Made by a program: the position numbers and the translations under genes. Below the pieces are notes generated by a model. It was not told the DNA's origin, ran no database searches, and saw only the letters and a program-made list of their open reading frames with translations. A stretch of DNA of 19,646 nucleotides from a virus (taxonomy: Duplodnaviria; Heunggongvirae; Uroviricota; Caudoviricetes), in IMG/VR virus record IMGVR_UViG_3300030444_000128; one strand, given 5' to 3'. Positions 90 to 19,646 of the stretch are shown piece by piece; the stretch's first letter is position 1; each line of letters begins with the position of its first letter.

Positions 90-144
90 TGGAGCACCTC
101 AAAAACACCATCATACACTAAATCAGTAAGTTGGCAGCATCACC
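1..144 (-). mobile_element. IS1 left end (partial; element continues beyond window start)
   Basis: Reverse complement of 122-144 is GGTGATGCTGCCAACTTACTGAT, which I recognise as the IS1 terminal inverted repeat. Positions 1-144 read as the first ~144 nt of IS1 in reverse orientation, including the InsA N-terminus. From memory, not searched. Confidence 0.85.
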
Positions 145-363
145 TATCACGGCATGCGAATTGAGCTTAAAGAACCAAATGGTAAAGCCCCGACGAAAGA
201 GCAGATCGCCTGGATGCGCAGGCTTAGAGAGGAAGGTTACTACGTCGTTCTTGCGTATGGTGCAGAACAAGCGATAACCGCCATCCTGGAATACATAAGC
301 CTTAAAAAGGGTGAGGCTATTGAGCATGTATTGAACGGCGACAAGTGGTTGTATGCTGCTTAA
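145..363 (+). pseudogene. VRR-NUC domain nuclease gene, 3' portion only, interrupted by IS1
   Basis: ORF 154-363 encodes IELKEP...PTKEQIAWMRRLREEGYYVVLAYGAEQAITAILEY, resembling the C-terminal half of a VRR-NUC (PD-(D/E)xK) domain with the ExK motif but not the upstream PD motif. The reading frame runs back into IS1 and hits a stop at 127-129. No convincing SD precedes ATG 154. Confidence 0.45.
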
Positions 364-429
364 AATAATAAATTAATTAGTGCATATGTGCTCTTTGATA
401 TAGCGCACATTAACATCGGGAGAATAATC

Positions 430-585
430 GTGTCATTCAAGGCTAATTATGAATCGCTGGCATCGATCATGCCGCGTAATGAACAGGAAGCAGATGCTGT
501 AGTGGACCCGGTAATCGCTGAAATGAATGCTCGCCTGGAGGCTGAATTTGCAGCTGAGAATGAACATACCACCCAGGGCGACTAG
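430..585 (+). CDS. small hypothetical protein (~51 aa from GTG 430)
   Basis: ORF 388-585. The GTG at 430 is preceded by GGGAGA (417-422) at good spacing. No recognisable domain. The start is uncertain (GTG 388 is the alternative). Confidence 0.3.
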   Translation: MSFKANYESLASIMPRNEQEADAVVDPVIAEMNARLEAEFAAENEHTTQGD

Positions 586-1189
586 GACTGTTTTTTGTGT
601 CGGTAGCGGTCCGTCACTCACTCGTGAGGACTGTGCTGCTATAGAAAAAACTGGCTGTTCAATCATCGCGGTTAACAATTCCTGGCAGATGTTCGATGAC
701 ATTTATGCCTTATACGCCGGTGATTTGTCATGGTGGAAGCAATACGGATCCACCATACCGGGAGGGAGATTCCGCAAAGTGACAGCCAACCTGGCGGCGG
801 CGAAATCATTTTCGTTGGAGTACAGGCGATATTGTGGACCGGCGGAAGGGGTAAATAGCGGCGCGCAGGCTATCAGTCTGGCTGCTGAATCAGGGGCTGA
901 AGTAGTGGTATTAGTCGGCTATGACTGTTCTCTGCAAAACGGCCTTCATTGGCATGGCGCGCACCCTCAAGCCCTACGGAATCCAACGCAGGTGTCTATT
1001 TCAAAATGGCAACAGCAGTTCCTGGATACCCGCAAAAAACACGCAGATTTACATATTTTGAATGCAAGTAGGAGCAGTGCAATTCAATGTTTCCCAAGAA
1101 TAAATTTAGAGGCAGTGATCGCGTTATTATCGTCGGCAGTGGCCCAAGCGCCGCAAACTTTGTTGCGCCGCGCGGAGTGCCGATTATAG
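560..1189 (+). CDS. GT42/DUF115-like Rossmann protein (putative glycosyltransferase-like), paralog 1
   Basis: ORF 527-1189. N-terminal FCVGSGPSL...IIAVNN, then VVVLVGYDCS and LHWHG, resemble the GNGPSL / GID / catalytic-His layout of Cst-II-type (GT42) and DUF115/Maf proteins. Start placed at ATG 560, which puts the GSGPS motif at residues 14-19 as in paralog 2; the ATG at 527 overlaps the upstream ORF. Confidence 0.5.
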   Translation: MNIPPRATRTVFCVGSGPSLTREDCAAIEKTGCSIIAVNNSWQMFDDIYALYAGDLSWWKQYGSTIPGGRFRKVTANLAAAKSFSLEYRRYCGPAEGVNSGAQAISLAAESGAEVVVLVGYDCSLQNGLHWHGAHPQALRNPTQVSISKWQQQFLDTRKKHADLHILNASRSSAIQCFPRINLEAVIALLSSAVAQAPQTLLRRAECRL

Positions 1190-1713
1190 CGGTCAATGGG
1201 GCCATCGACTGGCTTAACCGCGCTTCTTATTTTTTCACCCTTGATCCATCGCCAGACAATATGCGGCGCGTTGGTCGTGGCCGCCGTCGCCGTGGTGTTT
1301 GTTATTGCATGGCACTACCCGATGTTAAAGAACGTGAAGTCAGAGATGGCGTTCTGTGCTTCCGTCGTGTGGCTGAGCGCGGCACGGAGCCAAAAAATAC
1401 GAATTCTCCCGAGTGGTGGGCGTGGCGCTGGTCCGCACATTTCGGCCTTTGCGAAGATGAGAATGAAATTGCCAGCGGCAATAGTGCATATGGTGCTCTG
1501 AACCTGGCTTTCCATATCGGATTCAAACATGTCGCCCTGGTGGGCGTTGACGCTACACAAGAACCACGCGTTCACTCCGGCGGCACGCCAAAAAATCTAA
1601 GTCACCTGCCTTTGTTATTCCAGTCTGCGCGTGAACAGATTGACGTTGTTTCATGCGGGAAAATGGGAGGTATTCCGCAGATGACTCTTAAAGAATGGCT
1701 GAAGAATACATGA
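1087..1713 (+). CDS. GT42/DUF115-like Rossmann protein (putative glycosyltransferase-like), paralog 2
   Basis: ORF 1087-1713. IIVGSGPSA...IIAVNG, then VALVGVDAT and RVHSGG, parallel the motifs of the upstream gene (tandem paralogs). AGGAG at 1070-1074. Overlaps the 3' end of the upstream gene by about 100 nt in another frame. Confidence 0.55.
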
Positions 1714-2387
1714 TGGCACCCACAATTTATCACCGTATCGACGGTACCAAATACAGGAATGTCTGGGTTGTTGGTGATCTGCATGGTTGCTACACCAGAC
1801 TGATGTCCGAACTCCATCGTGTGGATTTTGACCCGGCGCAGGATTTACTGATATCGTTCGGCGACCTTATCGATCGCGGTACTGAAAATGTCGAATGTCT
1901 GGAACTATTGCAGATGCCCTGGTTCAGGGCAGTGATGGGGAACCATGAGCGGCTGATGATTGATGCGTTAAGTCCAGATGGCAACGTGAATAACTGGCTA
2001 ATGAATGGCGGACAATGGTTCTTCATGCTGGACACTGATCAGGAAATATTAGCCTGGGCGCTGGTGGAGCTGGTAAAGCGTCTGCCCTATATCATTGAGT
2101 TGAACACCGGGCAAGAAACTATCGTTATAGCCCATGCCGACTATCCGGATAATGAATACCAATTCGGTAAGGAGGTGCCGCTTTTCAACGTTGTCTGGGC
2201 GCGCGAGCGTATCAGTGATTCGATGGATGATATTGGTGGCGAAATTTCGGGCGCAGATCGTTTTATCTTTGGTCACACTCCGGTGAAAAGCCCGAAGACA
2301 TTCTGGAATCAGCATTATATCGACACAGGTGCCGTATTTTGCGGAAACCTGACATTGATGAAAGTGAAAGGTGATGGTGCAGCATGA
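1695..2387 (+). CDS. Ser/Thr protein phosphatase, lambda-PPase-like (calcineurin-like metallophosphoesterase)
   Basis: Motifs in order: GDLHG, GDLIDRG, GNHE, then ...GHTP...IDTGAVF. Strongly resembles phage lambda phosphatase / E. coli PrpA along its whole length. Start could be ATG 1695, 1710 or 1713. Confidence 0.85.
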
Positions 2388-3085
2388 AGATTGCTTTAGT
2401 TCTTCGCTCTGGTGGTGACTATAACGCTTCCGATGTGCAGTGGCTGGTTAATCAACTGCCAAAAGGCTATGAAATTATTTGCCTGACAGACCTGAAGCGT
2501 TTACATGTACCTGGCGTCAAAGTTGTCCCATTGATCAACCAGTGGCAAAAGTGCCGTGGCTGGTGGGCGAAAATCGAGTTGTTCCGACCGGATATAACCG
2601 ATGATCTGTTCTATCTGGATTTGGACACGGTTATTGCCGGTGATATACGCCCAATCCTAGAGAATCCACCAACCAGCTTCACCATGCTTAGGGATTTTTA
2701 CCATCCACAATATCGTGGCAGCGGTGCCCTGTGGATACCAAATAGTGTAAAAGTGCATATCTGGAGTGCATTCTGGCAAGATCCGGAAGGTTGGATTGCT
2801 CGTTGTGTTACTACTGAATGCTGGGGTGAGCAGGGGTTTTTGCGGAAGGTTATGGGTGATGATACACCAGTATTTCAGGATCTGTATCCGGGATGGTTTG
2901 TAAGTTACAAGGCCGATGTTGTGGAACCTGGTTCGAAATATGCGAGCGCGCGTTACTCCAGGGGGAATGGGGCATTACCAAAAGACTGCCGAATAATCTT
3001 TTTCCACGGCAAACCGCGACCTCGCGAAGTGTCAGAGGATTGGCTTCCCCTTATCAGCTCATTTTTTGAGCGAGAATCAGAATAA
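2384..3085 (+). CDS. hypothetical protein, possible nucleotide-sugar (DXD-type) glycosyltransferase
   Basis: ORF 2384-3085, start overlapping the phosphatase stop (ATGA). Contains YLDLDTVI (DXD-like) after a beta-alpha-beta-like N-terminus. Family assignment is weak. Confidence 0.45.
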
Positions 3086-3086
3086 T

Positions 3087-3103
3087 ATTGCTCTAATAAT
3101 TCC
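3087..3103 (+). promoter_or_regulatory. C1-repressor operator-like site
   Basis: ATTGCTCTAATAATTCC versus the P1 C1 operator consensus ATTGCTCTAATAAATTT as I remember it (14/17). Lies immediately after the stop at 3083-3085. Confidence 0.6.
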
Positions 3104-3111
3104 ATATTTTT

Positions 3112-3141
3112 AAAACGTGATGTACACTCATCACGTTTTTT
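3112..3141. terminator. bidirectional rho-independent terminator
   Basis: AAAACGTGATG-TACACT-CATCACGTTTT: perfect 11-bp stem with an A-tract before and a T-tract after, so a hairpin plus U-run forms on either strand. Confidence 0.65.
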
Positions 3142-3152
3142 ATTAGAGCAAT
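3136..3152 (-). promoter_or_regulatory. C1-repressor operator-like site (inverted relative to 3087-3103)
   Basis: Minus strand reads ATTGCTCTAATAAAAAA (14/17 to consensus). Together with 3087-3103 it forms an inverted operator pair around the terminator, directly upstream of the 3167 operon. Confidence 0.55.
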
Positions 3153-3166
3153 CTATAAGGTGCACT

Positions 3167-3385
3167 ATGTGGCCATTCCGACGGAAATATCACTACTGGC
3201 TGATCGCCTTTGTTACGCTGACCGGCGGTATCAGGCATGTCATCACCAGGTATCGCAACAAGAGACTCACCTTAGCCAGAATTTTACAGGCTGCCATAGG
3301 TGAGGGACTGGATACAAATTGCGTAGTCCTTCCACCTTCATACTTAGGAAAAATGACCGAAGCACAAGCTAATACGGAACTTTGA
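3167..3385 (+). CDS. small hypothetical protein, probable single-pass membrane protein
   Basis: ORF 3167-3385 (72 aa). AAGGTG at 3157-3162, 4 nt before the ATG. Hydrophobic stretch YWLIAFVTLTGGI. Stop at 3383-3385 lies 1 nt before the next ATG (coupling). Confidence 0.4.
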   Translation: MWPFRRKYHYWLIAFVTLTGGIRHVITRYRNKRLTLARILQAAIGEGLDTNCVVLPPSYLGKMTEAQANTEL

Positions 3386-3386
3386 A

Positions 3387-4649
3387 ATGAGCACTTCAGC
3401 ACAAAACCAATCAATCGAAAATGTATCTATCCCTGATGTCCTGAATGCCGGTATCCCGGCCATTATCCAGAACATCCGGGCCGCGCAACGCCGCGTTAGT
3501 TGTGATGACCTCACAGCACGTTTTTTTGATAATGCGGTTCAGTCAGCGGAGATGCTTCACGCACAGCTTATTGATGTTTATAACGCAGAAGCTGATAGCC
3601 ATAACTCCCTGGTAGATGCAGCTGAAAATATGCAGTTGGATCTCGGTCTGAAGGGTAAAGAAATTGAAGAGCTTCAGCTGCAAATTGAACATTTGAAACG
3701 CCAGCAACAGGACGCGATCGACGATGCGACGCATGACGCCAACCAGCGTGCTGATAATGCCGAACGTATAAGCATTGAGCTGGAAACAAAACTCAATGAA
3801 ATGACCGCGATGGTTGAACTGCGGAACTCACAGATTTCAACGCTAAAATCTCAATATAAAGAGATCATGAAACTTGATCCTTTTAACCTTGAGAAACGCT
3901 ATAACAAAGCTAAAAGCGAGCGACAGGAACTGCGTAAGCAGGTCGCTGACCTTAACCAACAGCTCAAAAAAACTATTAAAGATGCAAGCGAAGCGCGCGT
4001 GGCATTTGCTAATAAAAAAGCAGAGGTTACCGCGCTGGTTAATGAGAATGCCAAATTTGCGACGCTCAAGAAGGAAATGTATGGCATTACTGAGCGCCGT
4101 TTCCCTGCAAGCAAACTTCATCCGACGTTAGGGCAAATCTCCTTCTTCCCGCGCCTCCTGGCTTATGGGATCTCATCGCCTAAAGAGTTCAATAACGAGC
4201 GTCCTTATATCGTTTCTAAGCTGGACTTTGCTTATCAGTTCTGCTGCGACATGGGCTATGCCATTGATATCCGAATCAACGAATGGTTGATGCCAAACTT
4301 CCAGCCGTTGGCAATTTTCCGCGAGTTCCAGCCGGAAGGTTGGGTAGAGTTCTTCCATGAATTGATCTGTAAAGAGATGGAAAGCCGCCGCCCGGAATTG
4401 GTCCGTCGAGTTGAGTGGGCGCAAGAGGTTATGTTGGCAGATGCAGAGCTGCCGTTCGAACCGGAATTCATTGATGATCTGGCAACTAAAGGGCTGCATA
4501 CCCTGTTTGATGTGGTTACCCGCCGTCATGAGCAGTTGGTTGTCGAATTGGGTTTAGAGGAAACTGCGGCAAGAAGACTTCTCGATGTTTGCTATGCACG
4601 TAGCGATGCATGGGAAAAAGAGAACGGCGGCACTATTTACGTTCGCTGA
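3387..4649 (+). CDS. hypothetical coiled-coil protein (420 aa)
   Basis: Long ORF with a heptad-like, charged Q/E/K-rich segment at roughly residues 90-220 and a globular C-terminal half. No family recognised. Followed by a strong terminator. Confidence 0.7.
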   Translation: MSTSAQNQSIENVSIPDVLNAGIPAIIQNIRAAQRRVSCDDLTARFFDNAVQSAEMLHAQLIDVYNAEADSHNSLVDAAENMQLDLGLKGKEIEELQLQIEHLKRQQQDAIDDATHDANQRADNAERISIELETKLNEMTAMVELRNSQISTLKSQYKEIMKLDPFNLEKRYNKAKSERQELRKQVADLNQQLKKTIKDASEARVAFANKKAEVTALVNENAKFATLKKEMYGITERRFPASKLHPTLGQISFFPRLLAYGISSPKEFNNERPYIVSKLDFAYQFCCDMGYAIDIRINEWLMPNFQPLAIFREFQPEGWVEFFHELICKEMESRRPELVRRVEWAQEVMLADAELPFEPEFIDDLATKGLHTLFDVVTRRHEQLVVELGLEETAARRLLDVCYARSDAWEKENGGTIYVR

Positions 4650-4668
4650 TGGTTACAGTGTCACTTTT

Positions 4669-4703
4669 AATGCTGGTGGAGTGCGCCCACCAGCATTTTT
4701 TTT
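4669..4703 (+). terminator. rho-independent terminator
   Basis: AATGCTGGTGG-AGTGCGC-CCACCAGCATT followed by TTTTTT: 11-bp GC-rich stem plus T-tract, 20 nt after the stop at 4649. Confidence 0.8.
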
Positions 4704-4722
4704 CGTCCAATGAGGAGGGCAT

Positions 4723-5229
4723 TTGAGTATTTACAATAAACACGCACACCAGGAACGTCCGTACATCGTCATAGTAGATATTGATGGGACGATATCAGAG
4801 GCAACGGAAGACAGGTTGCATTTACTTCCACCACCTGGCAAAGGTGCATTAACAGAGCACTGGAACGAGTTTAACCTTGCCTGTGACACTGATGCTCCCA
4901 TCACTCCAGTTATTGATATGGTGCGCCAGTTGTCCAGCATTTACACGCTCTGGTTTGTAACCGGGCGCTGTGAGATAGCCAGGGATAAAACACGAGCCTG
5001 GTTGCGTAAGCACGTAACAAATGGGGCTGAGCCTTTGCTATCTATGCGTCCTGCCACCGATGACAGAAATGATGGTCCAGCAAAGATTGATCTCCTTAAG
5101 AAAATTGGTCTAAGTAAAATTGCATTCGCGCTGGAAGATAAGATTGAAGTAGCGCGTGTTTTCAGGCATCACGGCGTGCTTACGTTAATGGTCAGAGAGT
5201 ACGAAAATGCGCTTCTTCATCAACAATAA
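4723..5229 (+). CDS. HAD-superfamily hydrolase-like protein (putative phosphatase)
   Basis: TTG start with GAGGAGG at 4712-4718. N-terminal VIVDIDGTIS (HAD motif I, DxDGT), FVTGR (motif II), AKIDLLKK and ALEDK (motifs III/IV-like). Confidence 0.65.
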   Translation: MSIYNKHAHQERPYIVIVDIDGTISEATEDRLHLLPPPGKGALTEHWNEFNLACDTDAPITPVIDMVRQLSSIYTLWFVTGRCEIARDKTRAWLRKHVTNGAEPLLSMRPATDDRNDGPAKIDLLKKIGLSKIAFALEDKIEVARVFRHHGVLTLMVREYENALLHQQ

Positions 5230-5245
5230 TTGCTCTAATAAATCT
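5229..5245 (+). promoter_or_regulatory. C1-repressor operator-like site
   Basis: ATTGCTCTAATAAATCT, 16/17 to the remembered consensus, overlapping the stop codon of the HAD gene. Confidence 0.65.
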
Positions 5246-5327
5246 TGATTTTTAAAACGGAGAAAGTGAAAATAAAAACATGCCGCAAGGCGCGGCATGT
5301 ATCCAATCAATCACAGGAGCTGAAAAT

Positions 5328-5414
5328 ATGAACACGGCATTCAAAATCATTATGGCCGCGATCTATTTCTGGCTGTTCTCTATCACTTTTGGCGGCATCG
5401 TCGCGCATGGGTAA
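5328..5414 (+). CDS. possible 28-aa hydrophobic peptide
   Basis: ATG 5328 preceded by AGGAG (5315-5319). Encodes MNTAFKIIMAAIYFWLFSITFGGIVAHG, essentially one transmembrane helix. Below the ORF-track cutoff; the call rests on the RBS and hydrophobicity only. Confidence 0.3.
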   Translation: MNTAFKIIMAAIYFWLFSITFGGIVAHG

Positions 5415-5493
5415 GGGGAGTATATTAGCCATTTGGAACCCCACGAGCTCTTGCGGGTTTAATTAAGAACCCGCAAGAAAAACACGAATTGGG

Positions 5494-8400
5494 CTATATT
5501 TTTCCGCCTACGCCTTTAAACTTCTCAATAAACGAGACGATTTTCTGGAAAACTGCCTGTTTTTTCGTTTTATATTGCGGATTCAACGGACTAAGTTTTG
5601 GTAATGTTTCGTTTAATTCTGTGCCATTTTCGGTGGCGTATTCGCGTTTTAAAGACGTGCGAATATAGCGTTTTGCTGCATCTTCATTGAGATTTTCTTC
5701 TTTTATCAATGCTTCTGCTTCACGTTGCTGTTCGCGTTGAGCAAACGTAAAGAATGCCTCAATGATACTGGCTTTGTCTGGTAAATCATCCAGGTTCGTT
5801 TGCTGAATAAAATCGACCACCAGGCCCTCTTTCGCCCGGTTCCCCAGGCTTGAACGAATTAAGCGTTTGACCTCTTCGATCATTTCGCCCTTGCCTTTAT
5901 TTTGTCTGTTGTGTTCGAAAATCAGTCCAAGGATATAATCCAGGTTTATTTCCTGAGACTTCAGCAAATCGACCTCAAAAACCACGTCATCCCAGTCAGT
6001 GGTTGATTTCTCTTTTTTCTCAGCTTCTTTCTCACGGCGCTGCCAGTCGCGAATATCGTTATAGGCAGAACGATAATCCTGAATCTTGCGATCAGCAGGG
6101 AGACGAATTGTTTGCAATTCAGCGAACTTTTCATCATCCACATAATGTTCTGCTTTGAATTTTTCTACCGCAACAGGATCGCTAAGATCGATTTGTTGCA
6201 GGGCTTTTAGCGTGGCAAATTCATCATAGTTTTGCAGGATGTTCTCGGCACGCAGGTATTCGCCAAACAGTTTAACGAAGTCTTTCTTCTCTTTTTCACT
6301 TTCAATACTGGCAGGGTCAGGGAACCGTTGTTCCAGTTCTGAAACTACTGCCATAAAGCCGCGTTTGGCTTCACCGGTGGCAGCATCAGTAAAACCTTCC
6401 ATATACTCTGCATAACTCTTTTCTAACACCACATTTTTGGTATTTTTATCACCAAACAGCGTTATGGCATCAATGGTTGAGCGTTCCAGATCCCGAAAAG
6501 TGACAATGTTACCGAAGGTTTTAGTGGCGTTATAAATGCGGTTGGTGCGGGAAAATGCCTGCATCAGGCCGTGAAAACGCAAGTTTTTATCGACGAATAG
6601 CGTGTTCAATGTTGGAGCGTCGAAGCCGGTTAAAAACATCCCAACGACAATTAACAGATCGATATCCTGATTTTTAACCCGTTGGGCTAAATCGCGATAG
6701 TAGTTCTGAAAACCGTTACCGTCGGTGCTGAAGTTAGTTTTAAAATAGCTGTTATACTCACGAATTGCAGCGTCAAGAAACTCTTTAGCACTGCTGTCCA
6801 TTGCGCTGGTATCAAAAGTTTCATCGGAAATTTCACCAATGGCATTTTGTTCTTCATTAGCGGCAAAGGAGAAGATTGTCGCAACACGCAGCGGTTTATA
6901 AGTTGCAGATTTATTAGCGGCTTCCTCTTGTAACCGTTTAAACGCCGCGTAATAGGCTTTTGCAGCATCCACGCTGCTCACTGCCAACATAGCATTAAAA
7001 CCTTTTGCGCCAGGGAAAGTACGGTGCGTCTTCTGGCGGAAGTTATTCAGAATATATTGCGTAATTTCCTGTATACGCATGGGATGAAGAAACGCCTGCT
7101 GATTTTCAGCCGCACTTAGTTTTTTCTCGTCAGTTTCTGTCTCTAAAGACTTAAACTGTGGCCGCACATCGTTGTAGTCCACCTTGAATTTGAGCACTTT
7201 TTCATCACGAATCGCATCGGTAATTACATACGAATGCAATTCACGACCAAATACGCTGGCGGTCGTTTCTGAGCCTAAGGCGTTTTCCGGGAAAATAGGT
7301 GTGCCGGTAAAACCAAACTGATAATAGCGTTTGAATTTCTTCTTCAGGTTTTTCTGCGCTTCTCCAAACTGGCTGCGGTGGCATTCATCAAATATAAACA
7401 CCACTTGCTGATTATATACAGGCAGGTCGCTTTCTGCTTTCATCAGGTTATTGAGTTTCTGAATAGTAGTGACGATAATTTTGTTATCGTCCTTATCCAG
7501 ATTTCGTTTAAGGCCTGCGGTATTTTCCGAGCCGTTGACGCTGTCTGGCGAAAAACGCTGATATTCCTTCATGGTCTGGTAATCGAGGTCTTTCCTGTCG
7601 ACCACAAAGAAGACTTTATCAATAAAGTCCAGCTCTGTTGCCAGACGCGCGGCTTTAAAGCTGGTGAGGGTTTTACCAGAACCGGTAGTGTGCCAGATAT
7701 ACCCACCGCTTTCCGGTTTTGACCAGTTCTTCGCTGTAAAGGAACTCTTAATTTTCCACAGAATGCGCTCGGTGGCGGCAATCTGGTACGGTCGCATCAC
7801 CAGTAGCGTCTGACTACTGTCAAAAACGCTGTAGTTCACCAGAACATTCAGCAGAGTATGTTTCTGGAAAAAGGTAGCGGTAAAGTCTTTGAGGTCTTTA
7901 ATCAGCGTGTTGTCTGATTTCGCCCAATTCATGGTGAAGTCAAAACTGTTTTTATCGCGCTTTGTCGTGTTGGCAAAATAACGGGTATCGGTGCCGTTAG
8001 AAATGACAAACAGTTGCAGATACTTAAACAGGGAATTTTCGCTGTTAAAACTCTCTTTACTGTAACGATGTATCTGGTTGAAAGCCTCACGAATCGCCAC
8101 CCCGCGTTTTTTTAGTTCGATTTGCACCAGCGGTAAACCATTAACCAGGATCGTGACGTCATAACGGTTAGCATGAGAACCCGTCTGTTCAAACTGCTGG
8201 ATAATCTGCACCTTATTGCGCATGAGATTCTTTTTATCTATCAAATAGATGTTCTCAAGTCGCCCGTCATCAAAAATAAAGTCGCAGATATAGTCGATAT
8301 GGATTTTACGGGTTTTATCCAGAATACCATCGCTGGGGTTGTCCAGATACTGCTCCGTGAAGCGCCGCCACTCGCTGTCATTAAACATCACACCATTGAG

Positions 8401-8610
8401 GCTCTGAAGCTGTTCCCGAACATTGGACAGCATTGCCGACTGTGATTTTACGGAAATAAATTCATAACCCTGATTTTGCAGGTCCTGAATCAGTTCACGT
8501 TCCAGGTCCGATTCGCTCTGGTAGCTGTCGCCTGTTGGCTCAGCTTTGATGTACTTATCAAGAACGATAAAGTTATTGGATTCAGCAATGGTGTGTGTCT
8601 GATGAGTCAT
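5494..8610 (-). CDS. hsdR: type I restriction enzyme R subunit (HsdR), EcoR124-like (type IC)
   Basis: 1038-aa ORF with helicase motifs ([12 protein letters not shown] Walker A; [14 protein letters not shown]-box-like) and the type I HsdR architecture. Length and N-terminus match my memory of EcoR124 HsdR. Lies downstream of hsdM-hsdS on the same strand. Confidence 0.93.
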
Positions 8611-8731
8611 AGCGCATCCTTTGTGCCGTCTGGCAAGGGCCGGAAGGGGGGTAATGGTGACTTCCGGCGCGTAAAAAATAGTCTATATACTGACCGGGTG
8701 TTAAGGTGGTCCGATCGGTAGCAATGATCAA

Positions 8732-9949
8732 TTAATTACTGGCAGTTTCAGGTTTCGGGAAACTGAACAGTAAATCACGGTAGTATTCGTATTGTTTCTG
8801 GCGCAACTCGATTTCACGCGGGAGACCTTCGGTGATAGAGTTGGTCAGGGTGTCGAATTTATCGAGTATTTCGACAATGCGAGCTTGTTCCTTAAGTGAT
8901 TTTTCGTGATCTTTAGGATATGGAACCGGAATCATAATTTTTGAAAAACCATTAATGAGTAGTGTATTAACTTTTGTTCTGGCTACATACTTTGCTTTTT
9001 CAGAAATAAACGAATCGGTTTGCATGTAATAGGAAATAAATTTTGGATTCAAAGAATGTCGAAAAGCATAACAGTGATCATGAATAGCGATATCGTCATC
9101 CCCAAGCCATGCCACTGCTTTACCAACGTCTTCTACAGTCTCCCCCACGTCAGTTATCACGACATCTCCATGTTTGGCATAGCGTAATGACGCTGCCATA
9201 TCAGCTCTAACCTGTGATAACGAATGAGTTGTGTAAACACCATATCGTGTATATATCTCACCATAATGGATTACACTGATACCACCATCTTCTACATAAT
9301 CTGCTTTAGTAAAACGTTTTCCACGAATAAACTCACCAATTTCCCCCAAAGTCTTCCACTCAACCTCACCATCTTTAAAACTCAACAACTGGTCGCGATA
9401 GTAGTTGTACTGTTTTTTACGCATGTTAAGCTCAGCGGTAAGCTCAGCGGTAAGTGCAGTAAATTTATCCAGAATCCGAACGATTTCAGACTGGATGGCA
9501 AGGGATTTTTCCGGATTATCCGGGCAGGGGATGGGGATAGGGAAATTCTCTAAGGTTGATAGCACGATATATGTCATTGCCGCGCTATTTGTTCTTTCCT
9601 CGAGATATTTCTTCAGGCTATGGCTAAGCACAAAATACAAAAATCTAACACTTACATTTTCGTCGAAATTTGTCAGAACATAGGTGCGCTGATAAGCCTC
9701 AAACTTGCCGATGTAATGCTTCACCTCACCAACATTCGCATTGCCTGCAATCAGCAATGCCTCTGTATCCCAGCGGAATTTATCAATTTTGCTTGTCTCT
9801 TTGGCTGTCGTGAAGAACATATACTCTCCATCATCAACAGCCGCATTCGCATTAAGCTTTCCTGTTTCAATTTTGCAAGTTTGCCCAAGTGTCTTCCACT
9901 CAACCTCAACCCCATCCAGCAATTTTTCCAGATAACTCATCTCGCTCAT
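8732..9949 (-). CDS. hsdS: type I restriction-modification specificity subunit (HsdS), type IC with TAEL x2 central repeat
   Basis: 405-aa ORF with two target-recognition halves (EVEWKTLG occurs twice) and the central conserved region ...[29 protein letters not shown]. Start ATG overlaps the hsdM stop (ATGA). Confidence 0.92.
9429..9452 (-). repeat. 12-bp tandem repeat (2 copies) encoding TAEL-TAEL in the HsdS central spacer
   Basis: Plus strand GCTCAGCGGTAA GCTCAGCGGTAA. On the coding strand this is the LTAELTAEL segment whose copy number is known to set the spacer length of type IC recognition sites. Confidence 0.9.
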
Positions 9950-11508
9950 TTCTGCACCTCGCAGCCTTCAATTTCAGCCACAATTGCATCAATATCTTTA
10001 CGCAACTGGTCGATTTTGCTGACCGTGGTTTTCAGCTCTGCATTCAGCTCACCGATATCGATAATTTCGCGGTTATCTTTCGCTTCCACATAGCTGCTCA
10101 CCGACAGGTTATAGTCATTCGCGACAACAGTCTCAAACGCAACAGATTTCGCCAGATGAGCAACATCTTCCTTGCTGGCAAATACCTGCATAATCTGTTC
10201 GATATGGGCATCGGTCAGGATATTGTTGTTGGTTTCTTTTTTGAACAGTTCGCTGGCATCAATAAACTGAACTTTGGTATCCGTTTTATGTTTAGACAGC
10301 ACCAGAATGTTTACAGCAATAGTGGTGCCAAAGAACAGGTTCGGTGCCAGTGAAATCACGGTTTCGACATAGTTATTATCGACCAGATACTGACGGATTT
10401 TCTGCTCCGCGCCGCCACGGTAAAAAATACCCGGGAAGCAGACAATCGCAGCACGACCTTTGGCCGAAAGATAGTTCAGCGCATGTAGTACAAACGCAAA
10501 GTCAGCTTTGGATTTGGGGGCCAGGACGCCAGCCGGGGCAAAACGTTCATCGTTAATCAGCGTCGGGTCATCGCTGCCAATCCATTTCACCGAATACGGC
10601 GGGTTAGAAACGATGGCATCAAACGGTTTTTCATCTCTGAAGTGTGGCTCAGTCAGTGTATTACCCAGCTTGATATCAAACTTGTCGTAGTTGATGTTGT
10701 GCAAAAACATGTTCATACGTGCCAGGTTATAGGTTGTATGGTTGATTTCCTGACCAAAAAAGCCTTCTTCGATGATATGGTTATCAAACTGCTTTTTAGC
10801 CTGCAACAACAGTGAGCCGGAACCCGCTGCCGGGTCGTAGATTTTGTTAACGTTGGTCTGCCCGTGCATAGCCAGTTGTGCAATCAGCTTGGAGACGTGC
10901 TGCGGTGTAAAGAACTCACCGCCTGACTTACCGGCATTTGCCGCATAGTTAGAAATCAGGAACTCATAGGCATCACCGAACAGGTCAATCTGATGTTCGT
11001 TGAAGTCACCAAGTTTTAACCCTTCAACCCCTTTCAGAACCGCAGCCAGGCGGGCATTTTTATCTTTAACGGTGTTACCCAGGCGGTTACTGGTGGTATC
11101 GAAATCAGCAAACAAACCTTTGATGTCTGCTTCTGAAGGGTAGCCGTAAGCAGAACTTTCGATAGCAACGAAGATGCTGTTTAAATCTGCGTTCAGTCTG
11201 TCATTGGTATTTGCTTTCGCAGCTACGTTGCAGAAAAGCTGACTGGGGTAGATGAAGTAGCCTTTAGTTTTGATGGCATCGTCTTTAATGTCATCAGTAA
11301 TTACGCTGTCATCCAGTTTCGCATAACAGATACTGTCATCACCGGCTTCAATATAACTGGAAAAATTTTCGCTGATAAAACGGTAGAAAAGTGCGCCCAG
11401 AACGTATTGCTTAAAATCCCATCCATCGACCGAACCCCTGACATCGTTAGCAATTTGCCAGATTTGACGATGAAGCTCTGCACGTTGTTGAATACTTGTC
11501 ATTTTCAT
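9946..11508 (-). CDS. hsdM: type I restriction-modification N6-adenine DNA methyltransferase subunit (HsdM)
   Basis: 520-aa ORF with the catalytic NPPY motif ([10 protein letters not shown]) and an AdoMet-binding region ([10 protein letters not shown]). Confidence 0.95.
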
Positions 11509-11647
11509 CCACTTATTTCAGGCTTATGTAATTGGCGGTGATTCTACAGCAACTTGGATGCTTTAGCAGTTCGGACATTAGGCTACGAATGACCTGCCTA
11601 GAGGTTTGTTAAGCCGCAAAGTGCTGGTGCTTTATGTCTGTGAAGTT

Positions 11648-11678
11648 TATAATTGTGTACACATAACGAGTACACGAG
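11648..11678 (+). promoter_or_regulatory. phd-doc promoter -10 (TATAAT) and Phd/Doc operator palindromes
   Basis: TATAAT at 11648-11653, then TGTGTACACATAACGAGTACACGAG containing GTGTACAC-type palindromic half-sites, then GAGGT SD 4 nt before the phd ATG. Consistent with the autoregulated P1 addiction operator. Confidence 0.7.
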
Positions 11679-11684
11679 GTATTT

Positions 11685-11906
11685 ATGCAATCCATTAACT
11701 TCCGTACCGCGCGCGGCAACCTTTCTGAAGTGCTCAACAATGTTGAGGCCGGGGAAGAGGTTGAAATCACCCGCAGAGGCCGTGAGCCAGCAGTAATTGT
11801 CAGCAAGGCTACTTTCGAAGCCTACAAAAAAGCGGCGCTGGATGCTGAATTTGCATCCCTGTTTGACACCCTGGACTCCACCAACAAGGAACTGGTTAAC
11901 CGATAA
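11685..11906 (+). CDS. phd: Phd antitoxin (prevent host death)
   Basis: 73 aa, [40 protein letters not shown]...; matches P1 Phd as I remember it. Stop overlaps the doc start (TAATG). Confidence 0.95.
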
Positions 11907-12286
11907 TGAGGCATATATCACCGGAAGAACTTATTGCGCTTCATGATGCGAATATAAACCGCTACGGCGGCCTGCCGGGAATGTCTGATCCGGGTAGGGC
12001 AGAGGCCATTATCGGGAGAGTTCAGGCCAGAGTTGCCTACGAAGAGATCACCGACCTTTTCGAAGTCTCCGCCACCTACCTGGTGGCTACAGCGAGAGGG
12101 CATATATTCAATGATGCCAATAAGCGTACCGCGCTAAACAGTGCGCTGCTATTTCTACGCCGTAACGGGGTGCAGGTATTTGATTCACCTGAACTGGCAG
12201 ACCTTACCGTAGGGACTGCGACTGGCGAGATATCTGTATCTACTGTCGCCGCCACGTTACGTAGATTGTATGGTTCTGCGGAGTAG
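11906..12286 (+). CDS. doc: Doc toxin (death on curing; Fic-fold kinase)
   Basis: 126 aa with the Fic-type motif [11 protein letters not shown]; matches P1 Doc as I remember it. Confidence 0.95.
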
Positions 12287-12290
12287 ATTA

Positions 12291-12470
12291 ATGGCACGCA
12301 AATGCAACAAATTGTCCCATAAAGCGTTAAAGATGCTTCTTGATGGTGTGAGTCGCCGCGAGGTAAAGCAATACCTGGTTGGTAAGCAAATTGGTGCCAG
12401 GACCGCTATTGCTGTGTTATGCCGTCAGGAAATGGTTGTGCTTAAACAGAGAATGCCGGGCAGCAGATAA
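12291..12470 (+). CDS. pdcA: small protein downstream of doc (pdcA position in P1)
   Basis: ORF 12270-12470. I place the start at ATG 12291 (MARKCNKLSHK...) just after the doc stop, with GGAG upstream. Named by synteny only. Confidence 0.4.
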   Translation: MARKCNKLSHKALKMLLDGVSRREVKQYLVGKQIGARTAIAVLCRQEMVVLKQRMPGSR

Positions 12471-12497
12471 AGCCCAATCAGTGATGAAAGGTGTGAT

Positions 12498-13541
12498 GTG
12501 AAAGCCATTATTACTCCCTTTGTACAAAAAGAGCTTGGCGTCGCCACATTCAAAGTGGATCAGGAAGTCAGAAAGCTGGTGGAGGCTGGCCGTAAATTTA
12601 TTATGGAGCCGGTGCCGCGTGAGTTAATCGAGCACATGGAAGACGGCCTCGTTGTTACCGAGCAAACCATGGCAACAAATGAGGCGTTGCAGCCGTTTTT
12701 TAACAGCGATGAACTGTTTCGCCGTATTGGTGGAATTGACTCGCTGATGGCGTGGTTGCGCAGGAAAGAGGGGCAATGCCAGGCCGCAGATCGTAGTTGG
12801 TGTGACAACCATATTGTCCACGCTGAACGAGACAATAGCGCGGTGTTGTTGTGCTGGCATCACGATAACCATTACCGGATGCGTGGTTTTAATGAGCTGA
12901 AAGAAACGCTGCATAATAATCGCGTTAACTGGATACTGGATGTCGCCCGTCAGGAAATGGGGCTTTCAGATGGCCATGATTTAAGTATTCAGGAACTGTG
13001 CTGGTGGGCTTTCATGCGCAACATGATGCACCTGATGCCGGAAGAAGTTTGCCGTATATCAATAAATAAGATGAAAGCCGCAACGCAGGATAGCGGACCT
13101 CTGAAAGAGGCGGATATTCGTCCGTATGACGATCGCGCTACAGCATATGTTCAGATGATGGAAGAACGCGCTGCGCCGATGCGTGCAAAAGTATGCCCTG
13201 TGGATGTTGACTCCGACCCTGGCATGGCGCATTTCAAAATACCAAAACTGCAATCGCTAAAATTACCTGAGTACATGGACTTTGTTGCTTCCCGTCCATG
13301 CTGTGGGTGTGGAGCGGCGGGAGCTGGCGCTCACATTACGCCTTATATAGTTCGTCATAGTCGATTATGCGCGCATGACATTTATGCTATTCCTCTGTGC
13401 CAGTCATGCCAGCGTGATATTGAGCGTGACCGCGATAATTGGGAGAAAACACACGGCAGGCTGGCGATGCATCAACGATTGTTCTTTGATTACGCGCTTG
13501 GAGTCGGCGTTATCACAAGTCATTCGTCGAGCGTTAGATAA
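12498..13541 (+). CDS. pdcB: PdcB-position protein with C-terminal Cys cluster (347 aa)
   Basis: GTG start with AAAGG upstream. C-terminal [14 protein letters not shown]...C...CQSCQ looks like a zinc-binding cluster. Named by synteny (between doc and lpa). Confidence 0.55.
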
Positions 13542-13542
13542 A

Positions 13543-13584
13543 ATTGCTCTAATGTGTTGCTATTTCTTTAATCGAGGGTATTAT
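13543..13584 (+). promoter_or_regulatory. C1 operator-like site overlapping a candidate sigma70 promoter for lpa
   Basis: ATTGCTCTAATGTGTTG (13543-13559, about 13/17 to consensus) overlaps a -35-like TTGCTA (13557-13562); 16-bp spacer; -10 TATTAT (13579-13584). Fits C1 repression of lpa. Confidence 0.5.
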
Positions 13585-13629
13585 ATTCCACGTTGATTAG
13601 TTGACATGGGCTAATCAGTAGGTGACAGG

Positions 13630-14082
13630 ATGTTACTTAACTGGCAGGGACGCCACTTCATGGAAATAAATCACTCACGAATAACATCGTACGAGATTGC
13701 GGATTACATGATCCGCACTAAATCTCTTCTATCAGCGAAAGAACTCGCAGCAATTCTTGAAAAGGAATACCCGCATCTGGATGTCGATAAGCGCGACGTT
13801 TATCTGCGCTTAAAGGCTATCGCTGTGTCTAAGTATTCGTCTGTTTTGATTGATGACAGTACACGCCCACGTAGATTTCAGATCCACTCTCTGAATCCTG
13901 AATTCTTTCGCCGCAGCCGCGCGCCGCGCCGGTTTGATGAAAAACTCCAGAACGAACTCTATATGACGCAGGACGAAAAGGAACGCCGGGAACACCAGCC
14001 TTGGGTAATGGCGCGTCAACTTTTCAATAAGGTAGCCCGTCAGCACCGTCATTACGGTAATGCCACATCCGCACGTATCTGA
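13630..14082 (+). CDS. lpa: late promoter activator Lpa (by position and size)
   Basis: 150-aa basic protein lying between pdcB and pacA as in P1, with a C1 operator-like site upstream. Assignment by synteny; no motif verified. Confidence 0.6.
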   Translation: MLLNWQGRHFMEINHSRITSYEIADYMIRTKSLLSAKELAAILEKEYPHLDVDKRDVYLRLKAIAVSKYSSVLIDDSTRPRRFQIHSLNPEFFRRSRAPRRFDEKLQNELYMTQDEKERREHQPWVMARQLFNKVARQHRHYGNATSARI

Positions 14083-14167
14083 TTGATTGCTTGCCCGTTC
14101 CGGGCCTTTTGACATGTGACTTTCGTTACCCTCGCGTCAAAAAGAGTTTTTACGAAAGGAAGCATAA

Positions 14168-15361
14168 GTGACCTGGGACGATCACAAGAAGAATTTTGCT
14201 CGCCTGGCGCGAGATGGTGGTTACACCATCGCACAGTATGCCGCCGAGTTTAATCTTAACCCTAATACCGCACGTCGTTATCTCCGTGCCTTCAAAGAAG
14301 ACACCAGGACAGCGGACAGCCGCAAGCCAAATAAGCCAGTCAGGAAGCCACTAAAAAGCATGATCATTGATCACTCTAATGATCAACATGCAGGTGATCA
14401 CATTGCGGCTGAAACAGCGGAAAAACAAAGAGTTAATGCCGTTGTCAGTGCCGCAGTCGAGAATGCGAAGCGCCAAAATAAGCGCATAAATGATCGTTCA
14501 GATGATCATGACGTGATCACCCGCGCCCACCGGACCTTACGTGATCGCCTGGAACGCGACACCCTGGATGATGATGGTGAACGCTTTGAATTCGAAGCTG
14601 GCGATTACCTGATAGATAACGTTGAAGCGCGGAAGGCCGCGCGCGCTATGTTGCGTCGGTCCGGGGCCGATGTTCTGGAAACCACTCTTCTGGAAAAGTC
14701 TCTTTCTCATCTCCTTATGCTGGAGAACGCCAGGGATACGTGTATTCGCCTGGTGCAGGAAATGCGCGATCAGCAAAAAGACGATGATGAAGGTACTCCG
14801 CCTGAATACCGTATCGCGAGCATGCTAAACAGCTGTTCCGCGCAGATAAGCAGTCTGATCAACACCATTTACAGCATCCGGAATAACTATCGAAAAGAAA
14901 GCCGGGAGGCGGAAAAGCACGCTTTGTCTATGGGGCAAGCTGGCATTGTTAAGCTGGCATATGAACGAAAGCGTGAAAATAACTGGTCAGTGCTGGAAGC
15001 AGCTGAATTCATCGAGGCGCATGGTGGGAAAGTTCCGCCCCTGATGCTGGAGCAAATCAAAGCCGATCTGCGTGCTCCTAAGACCAATACCGATGATGAG
15101 GAAAGGCAAACAGCCGTCGGTGGCCCTTCTCTTGACGATCTGGACAAAGTTGCGCGAGAACGGGCCGCCAACCGCCGCGCCGATGCCGCATTGTGGATTG
15201 AGCAGCGTAGGGAAGAAATCGCCGATATCGTTGATACAGGCGGTTATGGAGATGTTGATACTGAAGGTGTATCAAACGACCCATGGCTGGAACAAGACCT
15301 GGACGAAGACGAGGAGGAAGACGAAGAAGTTACCCGCAAGCTATACGGGGATGATGATTAA
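14168..15361 (+). CDS. pacA: P1 PacA (pacase / terminase small component)
   Basis: 397-aa ORF from GTG 14168 (GGAAG SD). Contains the characteristic pac hexanucleotide cluster near its 5' end and an acidic C-terminal tail. Stop overlaps the next start (ATGA). Confidence 0.9.
14361..14519. other. P1 pac packaging site (4 + 3 TGATCA/G hexanucleotide repeats with Dam GATC sites)
   Basis: TGATCA at 14361, 14368, 14380 and 14395; TGATCG at 14491; TGATCA at 14503 and 14514. Two clusters about 90 bp apart inside pacA, matching the described roughly 160-bp pac architecture. Confidence 0.9.
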
Positions 15362-16340
15362 TGGCCAGAAGTTGCGTAACGGATCCTCGTTGGCGCGAGC
15401 TGGTGGCGCTATATCGTTATGACTGGATTGCTGCCGCTGATGTTTTGTTCGGCAAAACACCTACCTGGCAGCAGGATCTGATTATTGAGTCTGTGCAGGA
15501 ACAGGGTAGCAAGACATCTGTTTCGTCTGGTCACGGTACCGGGAAATCAGACATGACTTCTATCATGATCATGTTGTTCATAATCATGTATCCCGGTGCC
15601 CGCGCCATTATCGTTGCGAACAAAATTCAGCAGGTAATGACCGGTATATTCAAGTACATCAAGATAAACTGGGCTACTGCCACCAGCCGTTTTCCATGGC
15701 TTGCTGATTATTTTGTTCTGACAGAAACCGCTTTCTATGAGGTTACTGGTAAAGGTGTATGGACTGTATCAATATCATGATGGTGTCCGGCCAGCGAAAT
15801 AAACGCCGTGTAATCAACTATCGAATGCTGGAATACACAGACGTTACAGAAACGCAGCTTGCCGCCAAAATTTTCGCAGAATGTAATCCTGAGCGATTCC
15901 CCAATATCACCATAGCGATAGATGGCGATGGCCTGGGTAAAGCAACAGCGGATCTGATGTACGAGTATTATGGTATTACCGTACAGCGTATACGCTGGGG
16001 TAAAAAGATGCATAGCCGTGAAGATAAGAGCCTGTACTTTGATAAACGTGCTTATGCCAACGTTCAAGCCGCAGAGGCCGTAAAATCTGGTCGTATGAGA
16101 CTGGATAAGGGTAATGAAACTATTGAGGAAGCGTCGAAAATCCCTGTAGGGATTAACTCCGCAGGTCAATGGAAGGTGATGAGTAAGGAGGATATGAAGA
16201 AAAAACTCAACCTGCACTCACCAGACCATTGGGATACATATTGTTTCGCTATGCTGGCGGATTATGTTCCCCAGGATGAAGTGCTTAGCGTCGAAGACGA
16301 AGCGCAGGTTGATGAAGCTCTGGCATGGCTTAATGAATGA
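15361..16340 (+). pseudogene. pacB: pacB (terminase large component), apparently internally deleted and frameshifted
   Basis: Two ORFs in different frames: 15361-15780 carries the Walker A (SGHGTGKSD) and 15759-16340 carries a nuclease-domain-like segment ([11 protein letters not shown]...HSPDHWD). No Walker B anywhere. The combined length (~326 codons) is well below the ~494 aa I recall for P1 PacB. A TAA at 15750-15752 blocks the frame of the second ORF upstream. Confidence 0.6.
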
Positions 16341-16343
16341 ACA

Positions 16344-16360
16344 TTTGCTCTAATAAATTG
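16344..16360 (+). promoter_or_regulatory. C1-repressor operator-like site
   Basis: TTTGCTCTAATAAATTG, 15/17 to consensus, immediately after the pacB stop. Confidence 0.6.
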
Positions 16361-16490
16361 TGTTTTTTAGCTACCGATGTTACATTGAACCTGACCTCTT
16401 GCGCCTTGAGGCATTTTCGGTTTATGCTTATCAGGCACCTCATTAAAACGGGTGCCGGGATTGGCCTCCCGCTTAAGTCTAAGGCGATAC

Positions 16491-16514
16491 AGACGCCGCT
16501 CGCGTCTTTTTTTT
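16491..16514 (+). terminator. probable rho-independent terminator
   Basis: AGACGC-CGCTC-GCGTCT followed by seven T: short GC-rich stem plus T-tract, downstream of pacB. Confidence 0.5.
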
Positions 16515-16679
16515 GTATCGGCGTACACGCACACCTCTACAATGGTGGGCTGTATGGGGCTACCTTCGGGTAGGCTGGTTACCTTGGACGCCAGTAAGGC
16601 CAACTCCGTACAGTCCACCGCCAGCAAGATTGGTCTCTTCTGCGGTGGTTACATACCAACGTCTAAGGAGGCTGCCAAT

Positions 16680-18016: not shown

Positions 18017-18048
18017 TGGAAGAATGCCCGGTTGATGCCGGGCATAAT

Positions 18049-19339: not shown

Positions 19340-19646
<307 letters not shown>

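What the first reader, a model, noticed from the sequence alone, without database searches (positions are those of the whole stretch)
5494..11508. Complete type IC (EcoR124-like) hsdM-hsdS-hsdR operon sitting directly upstream of phd-doc
In the P1 gene order as I remember it, phd-doc is preceded by humD/lxr/hot-type genes, and P1's own restriction system (type III res/mod) is at a distant locus. Here a 6-kb type I operon occupies the position immediately upstream of phd, separated from it by only about 175 bp of divergent promoter region. That suggests either cargo replacement at this site or a rearranged backbone, and places a restriction-modification system next to an addiction module.
Basis: partly seen in the sequence, partly recalled or inferred. 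Interest (0 to 1): 0.5.

Follow-up and report, generated by a model that had tools for sequence, protein, structure and literature searches.

The report
EcoR124-type restriction cassette in P1-like plasmid
A complete, apparently intact EcoR124-type (type IC) restriction-modification operon replaces the pmgT-to-humD genes of a P1-like phage-plasmid right next to the phd-doc addiction genes. The arrangement is real, but it was described in 1997 and is present in hundreds of sequenced E. coli plasmids.

Summary
Intact hsdM (9946-11508), hsdS (8732-9949) and hsdR (5494-8610) lie on the minus strand, 176 bp upstream of and divergent from phd-doc.

- **Family:** HsdM is 99.4% and HsdR about 98% identical to EcoR124I. 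HsdS keeps the type IC conserved regions and two TAEL repeats, but both of its DNA-recognition domains differ from EcoR124I.
- **Replacement:** Compared with P1, a 6,190-bp cassette (5419-11608) precisely replaces the 3.5-kb pmgT-pmgU-pmgV-upfMNO-hot-lxr-humD block. Both flanks are collinear with P1, and no repeats mark the cassette ends. This is cargo replacement, not a backbone rearrangement.
- **Already known:** The two junctions are the P1 coordinates that the P1 GenBank record already marks as homologous to the flanks of the EcoDXXI and R124/3 hsd loci (Tyndall et al. 1997). The replaced block is a published variable region of P1-like phage-plasmids.
- **Frequency:** The left junction occurs in 221 of 5,426 complete E. 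coli genomes. The hsdM-phd junction occurs in 699, because an hsd-phd-doc fragment bounded by insertion sequences also sits in IncF plasmids.

Verdict: real, correctly read, already known, low interest. In passing: pacB carries a frameshifting internal deletion that recurs in independent samples.

The parts
5229..5245 (+). C1 repressor operator OpmgT (Op88), with the predicted PpmgT promoters just downstream (to about 5273). It lies in the P1-homologous left flank and now points toward the 3' end of hsdR.
   Evidence: Mapped from the P1 annotation (L001 6084-6128, offset 855) within a 98.2% identical alignment. The sequence ATTGCTCTAATAAATCT was read.
5278..5300 (-). Terminator-like hairpin with a T-run on the minus strand, in the P1 flank. 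It is positioned to stop hsdR read-through.
   Evidence: Consensus scan only; function not tested.
5329..5413 (+). Small hydrophobic 28-codon ORF at the end of the P1-homologous left flank. The left junction follows it at 5418/5419.
   Evidence: Sequence read. This stretch is annotated as a membrane protein or hypothetical protein in SJ46 and phi456.
5419..5493 (-). Cassette-specific tail downstream of hsdR, with an 11-bp-stem hairpin at 5449-5478.
   Evidence: Homology to P1 stops at 5418. This stretch is continuous with hsdR in the IncF plasmid copy L003.
5494..8610 (-). hsdR, the type IC restriction/translocase subunit (1038 aa), intact.
   Evidence: Full-length match to EcoR124I HsdR (PDB 2w00) with 18 substitutions in the about 968 residues displayed. 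The nuclease D..ELK, Walker A GSGKT and DECH motifs are retained.
8611..8731 (-). hsdS-hsdR intergenic region with a promoter-like site (8704-8675, TTAACA-18-TATTTT). This is consistent with a separate hsdR promoter.
   Evidence: Consensus scan. That it corresponds to PRES of EcoR124I is inferred from prior knowledge, not tested.
8732..9949 (-). hsdS, the specificity subunit (405 aa). It has type IC conserved N-terminal, central (two TAEL repeats) and C-terminal regions, and two recognition domains unlike those of EcoR124I.
   Evidence: The start overlaps the hsdM stop by 4 nt (ATGA).
9946..11508 (-). hsdM, the N6-adenine methyltransferase subunit (520 aa), intact.
   Evidence: There are 3 substitutions in 520 residues against EcoR124 HsdM (PDB 7bst_D), and the NPPY motif is present.
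11509..11608 (-). Cassette-specific leader upstream of hsdM, with a candidate -10 (TAGAAT, about 11533-11538) for the hsdMS promoter. The right junction is at 11608/11609.
   Evidence: Homology to P1 begins at 11609, at the humD stop codon. The candidate -10 was read by eye; the scan did not call a promoter here.
11625..11653 (+). Pphd promoter (-35 TGGTGC, -10 TATAAT), followed by the Phd/Doc operator palindromes. All of it lies inside P1-homologous DNA.
   Evidence: Mapped from the P1 annotation (L001 9777-9805) onto the alignment.
11685..12286 (+). phd-doc toxin-antitoxin operon.
   Evidence: Pfam PhdYeFM_antitox and Fic/DOC. The products are 100% and 96.8% identical to P1 Phd and Doc.

Best explanation
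The window is a stretch of a P1-like (Punavirus) phage-plasmid carrying the common 'hsd allele' of a known variable region. [quoted passage not shown] It therefore lies back to back with phd-doc.

By homology to EcoR124I, the products should assemble into an M2S1 methyltransferase. This enzyme would N6-methylate adenines in a bipartite target; a 6-bp spacer is predicted from the two TAEL repeats. They should also form an R2M2S1 complex that translocates and cuts unmodified incoming DNA. The lysogen would thereby gain defence against foreign phages and plasmids, and the element's own DNA would carry the matching modification.

The cassette has its own leader on the hsdM side, a promoter-like site in front of hsdR, and its own 3' tail. 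Pphd and its operators lie wholly in the P1 part, so the two divergent units are probably regulated independently.

The cassette ends carry no transposon or integrase signatures. Spread between P1-like backbones is therefore best explained by homologous recombination in the conserved flanks. Insertion-sequence (IS) capture of an hsd-phd-doc-pdcA-pdcB' fragment explains the copies in IncF plasmids such as R124.

Shown here: gene content, integrity, near-identity to EcoR124I, exact junctions, recurrence. Inferred: enzymatic activity, spacer length, promoter use, mode of transfer.
For: - **Genes and domains:**
- **Near-identity to solved EcoR124I subunits:**
- **Collinearity with P1 and base-exact junctions:**
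- **Prior annotation:** P1's own record marks 84263-84482 and 87969-88647 as homologous to DNA downstream and upstream of the EcoDXXI and R124/3 hsd loci. The Tyndall et al. 1997 title is cited in PMC12707154 and PMC2853133.
- **Known variable region:** pmgT..humD is 'variable region 8' of P1-like phage-plasmids (PMC9603915).
- **Same arrangement in phages:** vB_EcoM-673R5 and phi456.
- **Recurrence:** up to 224 PLSDB plasmids against 617 carrying the pmgS-pap backbone; left junction in 221 and right junction in 699 of 5,426 complete E. coli genomes.
- **IncF copy:** an ST131 IncF plasmid carries IS1 | 84 bp of P1 | hsdRSM | phd doc pdcA pdcB' | IS, equal to window 5335-12775.
- **Cassette ends and composition:** no direct or inverted repeats at the ends; GC 43.9% against 47.7-48.9% in the flanks.
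- **Ancestral order:** the distant relative D6 has a umuD-like gene next to phd-doc, suggesting humD-phd-doc is the older arrangement.
Against: No activity data exist for this allele, and the recognition sequence is unknown. The hsdM promoter was not detected by the consensus scan. The direction of the replacement, hsd displacing pmgT-humD rather than the reverse, rests on GC content and on D6, not on a phylogeny. Homologous recombination as the transfer mechanism is inferred from the absence of mobility signatures. The plasmid frequency is approximate, because some IncF modules with the same TRD1 could exceed the 80% coverage threshold.
Confidence: 0.93

Rival explanations
1. The direction is reversed: hsd next to phd-doc is the ancestral state of the P1 lineage, and the pmgT-humD block of P1 and P7 is the later acquisition.
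For: Both states are common, with roughly a third to 40% of P1-like plasmids carrying hsd. The site also holds yet other cargo, for example in JL22, so no state is obviously original.
Against: The hsd GC (43.9%) is lower than both flanks, whereas the P1 block (46.5%) is closer to them. The more distant phage-plasmid D6 has a umuD-like gene beside phd-doc. The right junction falls exactly at the humD stop codon and the left exactly before the pmgT start, which fits replacement of an operon-shaped unit.
Confidence: 0.08
2. The backbone was rearranged: hsd was brought next to phd by an inversion or translocation within the P1-like genome.
Against: Both flanks are collinear and co-oriented with P1 over 5.3 kb and 4.2 kb. 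P1 has no type I hsd elsewhere that could have moved. The same junctions occur in hundreds of records.
Confidence: 0.01
3. The junction is an assembly chimera between a P1-like plasmid and an hsd-bearing plasmid.
For: The window ends in IS1 and IS5 fragments, which is typical of a short-read contig.
Against: Identical junctions occur in closed, complete plasmids, in isolated phage genomes, and in eight independent contigs.
Confidence: 0.01
4. The cassette is present but functionally silent in this element, with restriction not expressed or alleviated, so it acts only as a methyltransferase or as a passenger.
For: Relatives show frequent decay: hsdS or hsdR is interrupted by IS elements in phi456 and in plasmid L006, and the hsd genes are annotated in fragments in 673R5. 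The C1-controlled PpmgT promoters face hsdR convergently.
Against: Here all three ORFs are full length with catalytic motifs intact. The exact HsdS sequence is kept in at least 23 contigs (the index lists it in 54 blocks of the collection).
Confidence: 0.1

Closest known systems
EcoR124I / EcoR124II (plasmid R124 and R124/3), the type IC prototype
   Same: Same hsdM-hsdS-hsdR order. HsdM is 99.4% and HsdR about 98% identical. HsdS has identical N-terminal, central and C-terminal conserved regions and two TAEL repeats, as in EcoR124I. The same 84 bp of P1 DNA lies downstream of hsdR.
   Different: Both target-recognition domains of HsdS differ, so the recognition sequence is not GAA(N6)RTCG. 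Here the locus sits in a P1-like backbone with full P1 flanks, not in an IncF plasmid.
EcoDXXI hsd locus (plasmid pDXX1), as described by Tyndall et al. 1997
   Same: A type IC hsd flanked by P1 DNA at the same P1 coordinates: 84263-84482 downstream, and 87969-88647 (phd-doc) upstream (P1 annotation).
   Different: EcoDXXI has three TAEL repeats (N7 spacer) and the specificity TCA(N7)RTTC (table in PMC12707154). I could not obtain its sequence, so its recognition domains were not compared directly.
P1-like phage-plasmids carrying the hsd allele (phi456, vB_EcoM-673R5, pD72-type plasmids of about 96 kb)
   Same: Same junctions and gene order at 96-99% identity.
   Different: TRD1 of HsdS differs in many of them. 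phi456 has an IS in hsdS and also keeps the P1 type III res gene, whereas 673R5 lacks P1 res. The window lineage has a pacB deletion.
EcoprrI (chromosomal type IC with the prrC anticodon nuclease)
   Same: Same type IC family.
   Different: There is no prrC here. The hsdS-hsdR gap is only 121 bp. Chromosomal E. coli hits to the hsdM 5' end are only 82-92% identical and lack the phd junction.

Membership tests
Type IC restriction-modification (EcoR124 family) | Three genes in the order hsdM-hsdS-hsdR, with hsdR last and set apart by an intergenic region | tested here: met
   The genes lie at 11508->9946, 9949->8732 and 8610->5494 on the minus strand. hsdM and hsdS overlap by 4 nt, and a 121-bp gap precedes hsdR.
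Type IC restriction-modification (EcoR124 family) | HsdM and HsdR closely related to the family prototype (sequence used as a proxy for cross-hybridisation and complementation) | tested here: met
   HsdM has 517 of 520 residues identical. HsdR has about 18 substitutions in the first 968 residues against EcoR124I PDB chains. The Pfam EcoR124_C domain scores E=2e-71.
Type IC restriction-modification (EcoR124 family) | HsdS with type IC conserved regions and TAEL repeats in the central region, flanking two variable recognition domains | tested here: met
   The conserved regions are identical to EcoR124 HsdS, the central region reads LTAELTAEL, and both recognition domains diverge. Relatives show swapping of these domains.
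Type IC restriction-modification (EcoR124 family) | Catalytic motifs intact: NPPY in HsdM; PD-(D/E)xK nuclease, Walker A and DEAD-like box in HsdR | tested here: met
   SNPPYS; D..ELK; TTGSGKT; FDECH. All were seen in the alignments.
Type IC restriction-modification (EcoR124 family) | Subunit complementation with EcoR124I, and ATP-dependent restriction and modification in vivo | not testable with these tools
   Needs genetics or biochemistry.
P1-like phage-plasmid (Punavirus) backbone | Collinear nucleotide homology to P1 on both sides of the locus | tested here: met
   98.2% over 5,274 bp on the left and 95.1% over 4,159 bp on the right; the C1 repressor product matches NCBIfam phage_rep_C1.
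P1-like phage-plasmid (Punavirus) backbone | Intact packaging genes pacA and pacB, needed for a functional phage | tested here: not met
   pacA is intact. pacB has an internal deletion of about 505 bp with a frameshift, giving a 139-aa product. The same deletion occurs in four independent contigs. The rest of the element lies outside the window.
phd-doc type II toxin-antitoxin | Phd/YefM antitoxin gene followed by an overlapping Fic/Doc toxin gene, behind the Pphd promoter and operator | tested here: met
   Pfam hits. The products are 100% and 96.8% identical to those of P1. The promoter and palindromes are conserved.

The most novel reading that the evidence does not exclude
In the hsd allele, the C1-repressed promoters that drive pmgT in P1 (operator Op88 at 5229-5245) fire convergently into the 3' end of hsdR. 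Prophage induction could therefore lower HsdR by transcriptional interference or antisense RNA. That would be a restriction alleviation coupled to the lytic cycle, selected together with the neighbouring phd-doc as one defence-plus-addiction module. Nothing here tests this; it rests only on the geometry of the conserved flank.
Probability: 0.05. Interest if true: 0.5.

Novelty: already known. Interest (0 to 1): 0.15.

Why it matters
It matters little as a discovery. It is a clean example of a known fact: EcoR124-family type I systems travel inside P1-like phage-plasmids at the pmgT-humD hotspot. From there, fragments that still include phd-doc have been captured by IS elements into IncF plasmids. 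The useful outputs are base-exact junctions, an estimate that roughly a third to 40% of P1-like plasmids carry this allele, and the observation that about 13% of complete E. coli genomes carry the hsdM-phd junction. These figures may help annotate defence systems and P1 remnants in plasmids.

Tried and rejected
- **Mobility signatures:** I looked for direct or inverted repeats at the cassette ends and found none.
- **Naming the specificity:** A search of 5.8 billion proteins returned only generic names, 'restriction endonuclease subunit S', so the recognition sequence stays unknown.
- **Reading the primary papers:** The P1 genome paper is not held in the library, and a copy of Tyndall et al. 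1997 was never looked up. I relied on the P1 GenBank annotation and on the 1997 title as cited elsewhere.
- **Literature search:** Searches for P1-like plus hsdR/hsdM, and for type IC plus phd/doc, gave nothing more specific.
- **hsdM promoter:** The consensus scan found none in 11509-11684. Only a candidate -10 was seen by eye.
- **Exclusion of P1's type III system:** I checked whether hsd excludes P1's own type III system. It does not: phi456 has both, and 673R5 has only hsd.
- **hsd-phd/doc link outside P1-derived DNA:** It does not hold. A Klebsiella phage-plasmid has an 83%-identical hsd next to a GmrSD-like gene instead.
- **Source of the window:** The exact source is not in the complete-genome collections, where the best match is 98.8% identical. 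Near-identical contigs exist in public assemblies.
Full report
**Observation.** The window holds three intact minus-strand ORFs: hsdR at 5494-8610 (1038 aa), hsdS at 8732-9949 (405 aa) and hsdM at 9946-11508 (520 aa).
- Pfam assigns HSDR_N, SWI2_SNF2/ResIII, T1R_D3-like and EcoR124_C to the first ORF, Methylase_S (two stretches) to the second, and HsdM_N plus N6_Mtase to the third.
- NCBIfam and PADLOC agree.
- phd (11685-11906) and doc (11906-12286) follow on the plus strand after a 176-bp gap. Their products are 100% and 96.8% identical to P1 Phd and Doc.

**What the system is.**
- HsdM differs from the EcoR124 HsdM chain of PDB 7bst at 3 of 520 residues, and the NPPY motif is present.
- HsdR differs from EcoR124I HsdR (PDB 2w00) at 18 positions in the roughly 968 residues displayed. 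The D..ELK nuclease motif, the GSGKT Walker A and the DECH box are retained.
- HsdS is identical to EcoR124 HsdS in the N-terminal, central and C-terminal conserved regions. It has two TAEL repeats (LTAELTAEL), but both target-recognition domains (TRDs) are unrelated to those of EcoR124I.
- In the family table of PMC12707154, the two-repeat enzyme EcoR124I has an N6 spacer, and members with four extra central residues have N7. I therefore predict an N6 bipartite target, but the bases recognised are unknown.
- Relatives show the usual domain shuffling. The window's TRD2 is joined to at least seven other TRD1s, including that of EcoR124I, and its TRD1 is joined to another TRD2.
- hsdS starts 4 nt inside the end of hsdM (ATGA). 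The 121-bp gap before hsdR contains a promoter-like site.

**Where it sits.**
- The window is a P1-like backbone. Window 145-5418 aligns to P1 79210-84482 at 98.2%, and window 11609-15764 aligns to P1 87970-92125 at 95.1%, collinear and co-oriented.
- The breaks are sharp. On the left, identity ends just after a small hydrophobic ORF and the pmgT ribosome-binding site. On the right, identity begins at the humD stop codon.
- No direct or inverted repeats mark the ends.
- The cassette GC is 43.9%, against 47.7% and 48.9% in the flanks and 46.5% for the displaced P1 block.
'Rearranged backbone' is excluded.

**Already known.**
- The P1 reference record annotates 84263-84482 as 96% identical to DNA downstream of the EcoDXXI hsd locus. 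It annotates 84399-84482 as 98% identical to DNA downstream of hsdR in R124/3, and 87969-88647 (phd-doc) as 98% identical to DNA upstream of the EcoDXXI hsd locus. These end points coincide with my junctions.
[quoted passage not shown] That paper is cited in PMC12707154 and PMC2853133. I could not read it directly.
- A survey of P1-like phage-plasmids lists pmgT-pmgU-pmgV-upfMNO-hot-lxr-humD as one of eight highly variable regions (PMC9603915).

**How common.**
- Phages vB_EcoM-673R5 and phi456 have hsd at the same place.
- In PLSDB, 224 plasmids hold at least 80% of window 4000-13000 in one place, against 617 holding the pmgS-pap backbone. The ratio is approximate.
- Among 5,426 complete E. 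coli genomes, 221 carry the full left junction of P1 flank plus hsdR end. The hsdM-phd junction is carried by 699.
- The excess is explained by IncF plasmids. In ST131 plasmid pMB9877_1, the order is IS1, 84 bp of P1 DNA, hsdR-hsdS-hsdM, phd, doc, pdcA, a truncated pdcB, then another IS. This equals window 5335-12775. The same 84-bp relic is the one annotated for R124/3.
- The truncated P1 genes argue that these modules are fragments of P1-like elements captured by IS elements.

**Mechanism.**
- By near-identity with EcoR124I, I infer an M2S1 methyltransferase and an R2M2S1 ATP-dependent restriction enzyme. These would defend the lysogen and imprint the element's DNA.
- The 100 bp upstream of hsdM (11509-11608) belong to the cassette and hold only a candidate -10.
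- Pphd and its operators (11625-11677) lie wholly in P1 DNA. The two divergent units are thus about 90 bp apart and probably independent.
- Adjacency to phd-doc looks like a consequence of which block was replaced, not a designed coupling. A Klebsiella phage-plasmid has an 83%-identical hsd beside a GmrSD-like gene and no phd-doc.
- P1's own type III res is present with hsd in phi456 and absent in 673R5. The two systems therefore neither require nor exclude each other.

**Rivals.**
- A reversed direction of replacement is possible but disfavoured by GC content and by D6, which has a umuD-like gene next to phd-doc.
- An assembly chimera is excluded by hundreds of closed records.
- Silence of the system cannot be excluded without experiments. 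IS-disrupted copies are frequent in relatives, but this copy is intact.

**Other things seen.**
- pacB has an internal deletion of about 505 bp with a frameshift. The deletion is shared at 99.6-99.99% identity by four independent contigs, while other contigs with the same HsdS have intact pacB.
- The window ends in IS1 (1-144, inside pmgM) and IS5 (19337-19646, inside imcA).
- An Icd-like ORF and an ORF6N/KilAC antirepressor sit between pacB and c1.

**Verdict.** The finding is real and correctly interpreted, but it is a well-documented and common allele. Novelty: already known. Interest: 0.15.

Noticed in passing
window 15361-16342: pacB (terminase subunit) has an internal deletion of about 505 bp relative to P1 (P1 92126-92632 missing) plus a frameshift. 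This leaves a 139-aa N-terminal ORF. The same deletion is present in four independent public contigs at 99.6-99.99% identity, while other contigs with the identical HsdS have an intact 494-aa pacB. This suggests a circulating, packaging-defective P1-like plasmid lineage.
   Followed up: partly
window 1-144 and 19337-19646: An IS1 end abuts the interior of pmgM (P1 79210), and an IS5 end abuts imcA (P1 94521). Related contigs stop at the same places, so these are probably real IS insertions at which short-read assemblies break. What lies beyond them is unknown.
   Followed up: partly
window 16343-18049: An insert absent from P1 lies between pacB and c1. It holds a 78-aa ORF (at the position where related records annotate a 73-aa Icd-like protein) and a 372-aa ORF6N + KilAC antirepressor. 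It is shared with vB_EcoM-673R5, and related antirepressor genes are annotated in RCS47.
   Followed up: partly
window 5229-5300: The C1 operator Op88/OpmgT and the predicted PpmgT promoters, which drive pmgT in P1, are retained and now point at the 3' end of hsdR. A minus-strand terminator-like hairpin (5300-5278) lies between them and the cassette. Convergent transcription on induction is conceivable but untested.
   Followed up: no
L003 (NZ_CP103466.1, ST131 IncF plasmid) 5491-13128: A 7.4-kb P1-derived module (84 bp of P1, hsdRSM, phd, doc, pdcA, truncated pdcB) is bounded by IS1 and another IS remnant. Many human-isolate IncF-type plasmids share the same 84-bp end point, implying one ancestral capture event. 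R124/3 shares that end point too.
   Followed up: partly
L007 (PQ492289.1, Klebsiella phage vB_KpnS_p4727) 3493-11515: A type IC hsdMSR 83% identical to the window's sits without any P1 flanks. It lies next to a 625-aa GmrSD_N (type IV restriction-like) gene, in an unannotated phage-plasmid-sized genome.
   Followed up: partly
window 8732-9949 and proteins P0021-P0119: HsdS recognition domains are shuffled among E. coli type IC alleles. The window's TRD2 occurs with at least seven other TRD1s. One allele (P0119) joins the EcoR124I TRD1 to this TRD2 with only a single TAEL repeat, which would predict a shorter spacer.
   Followed up: no
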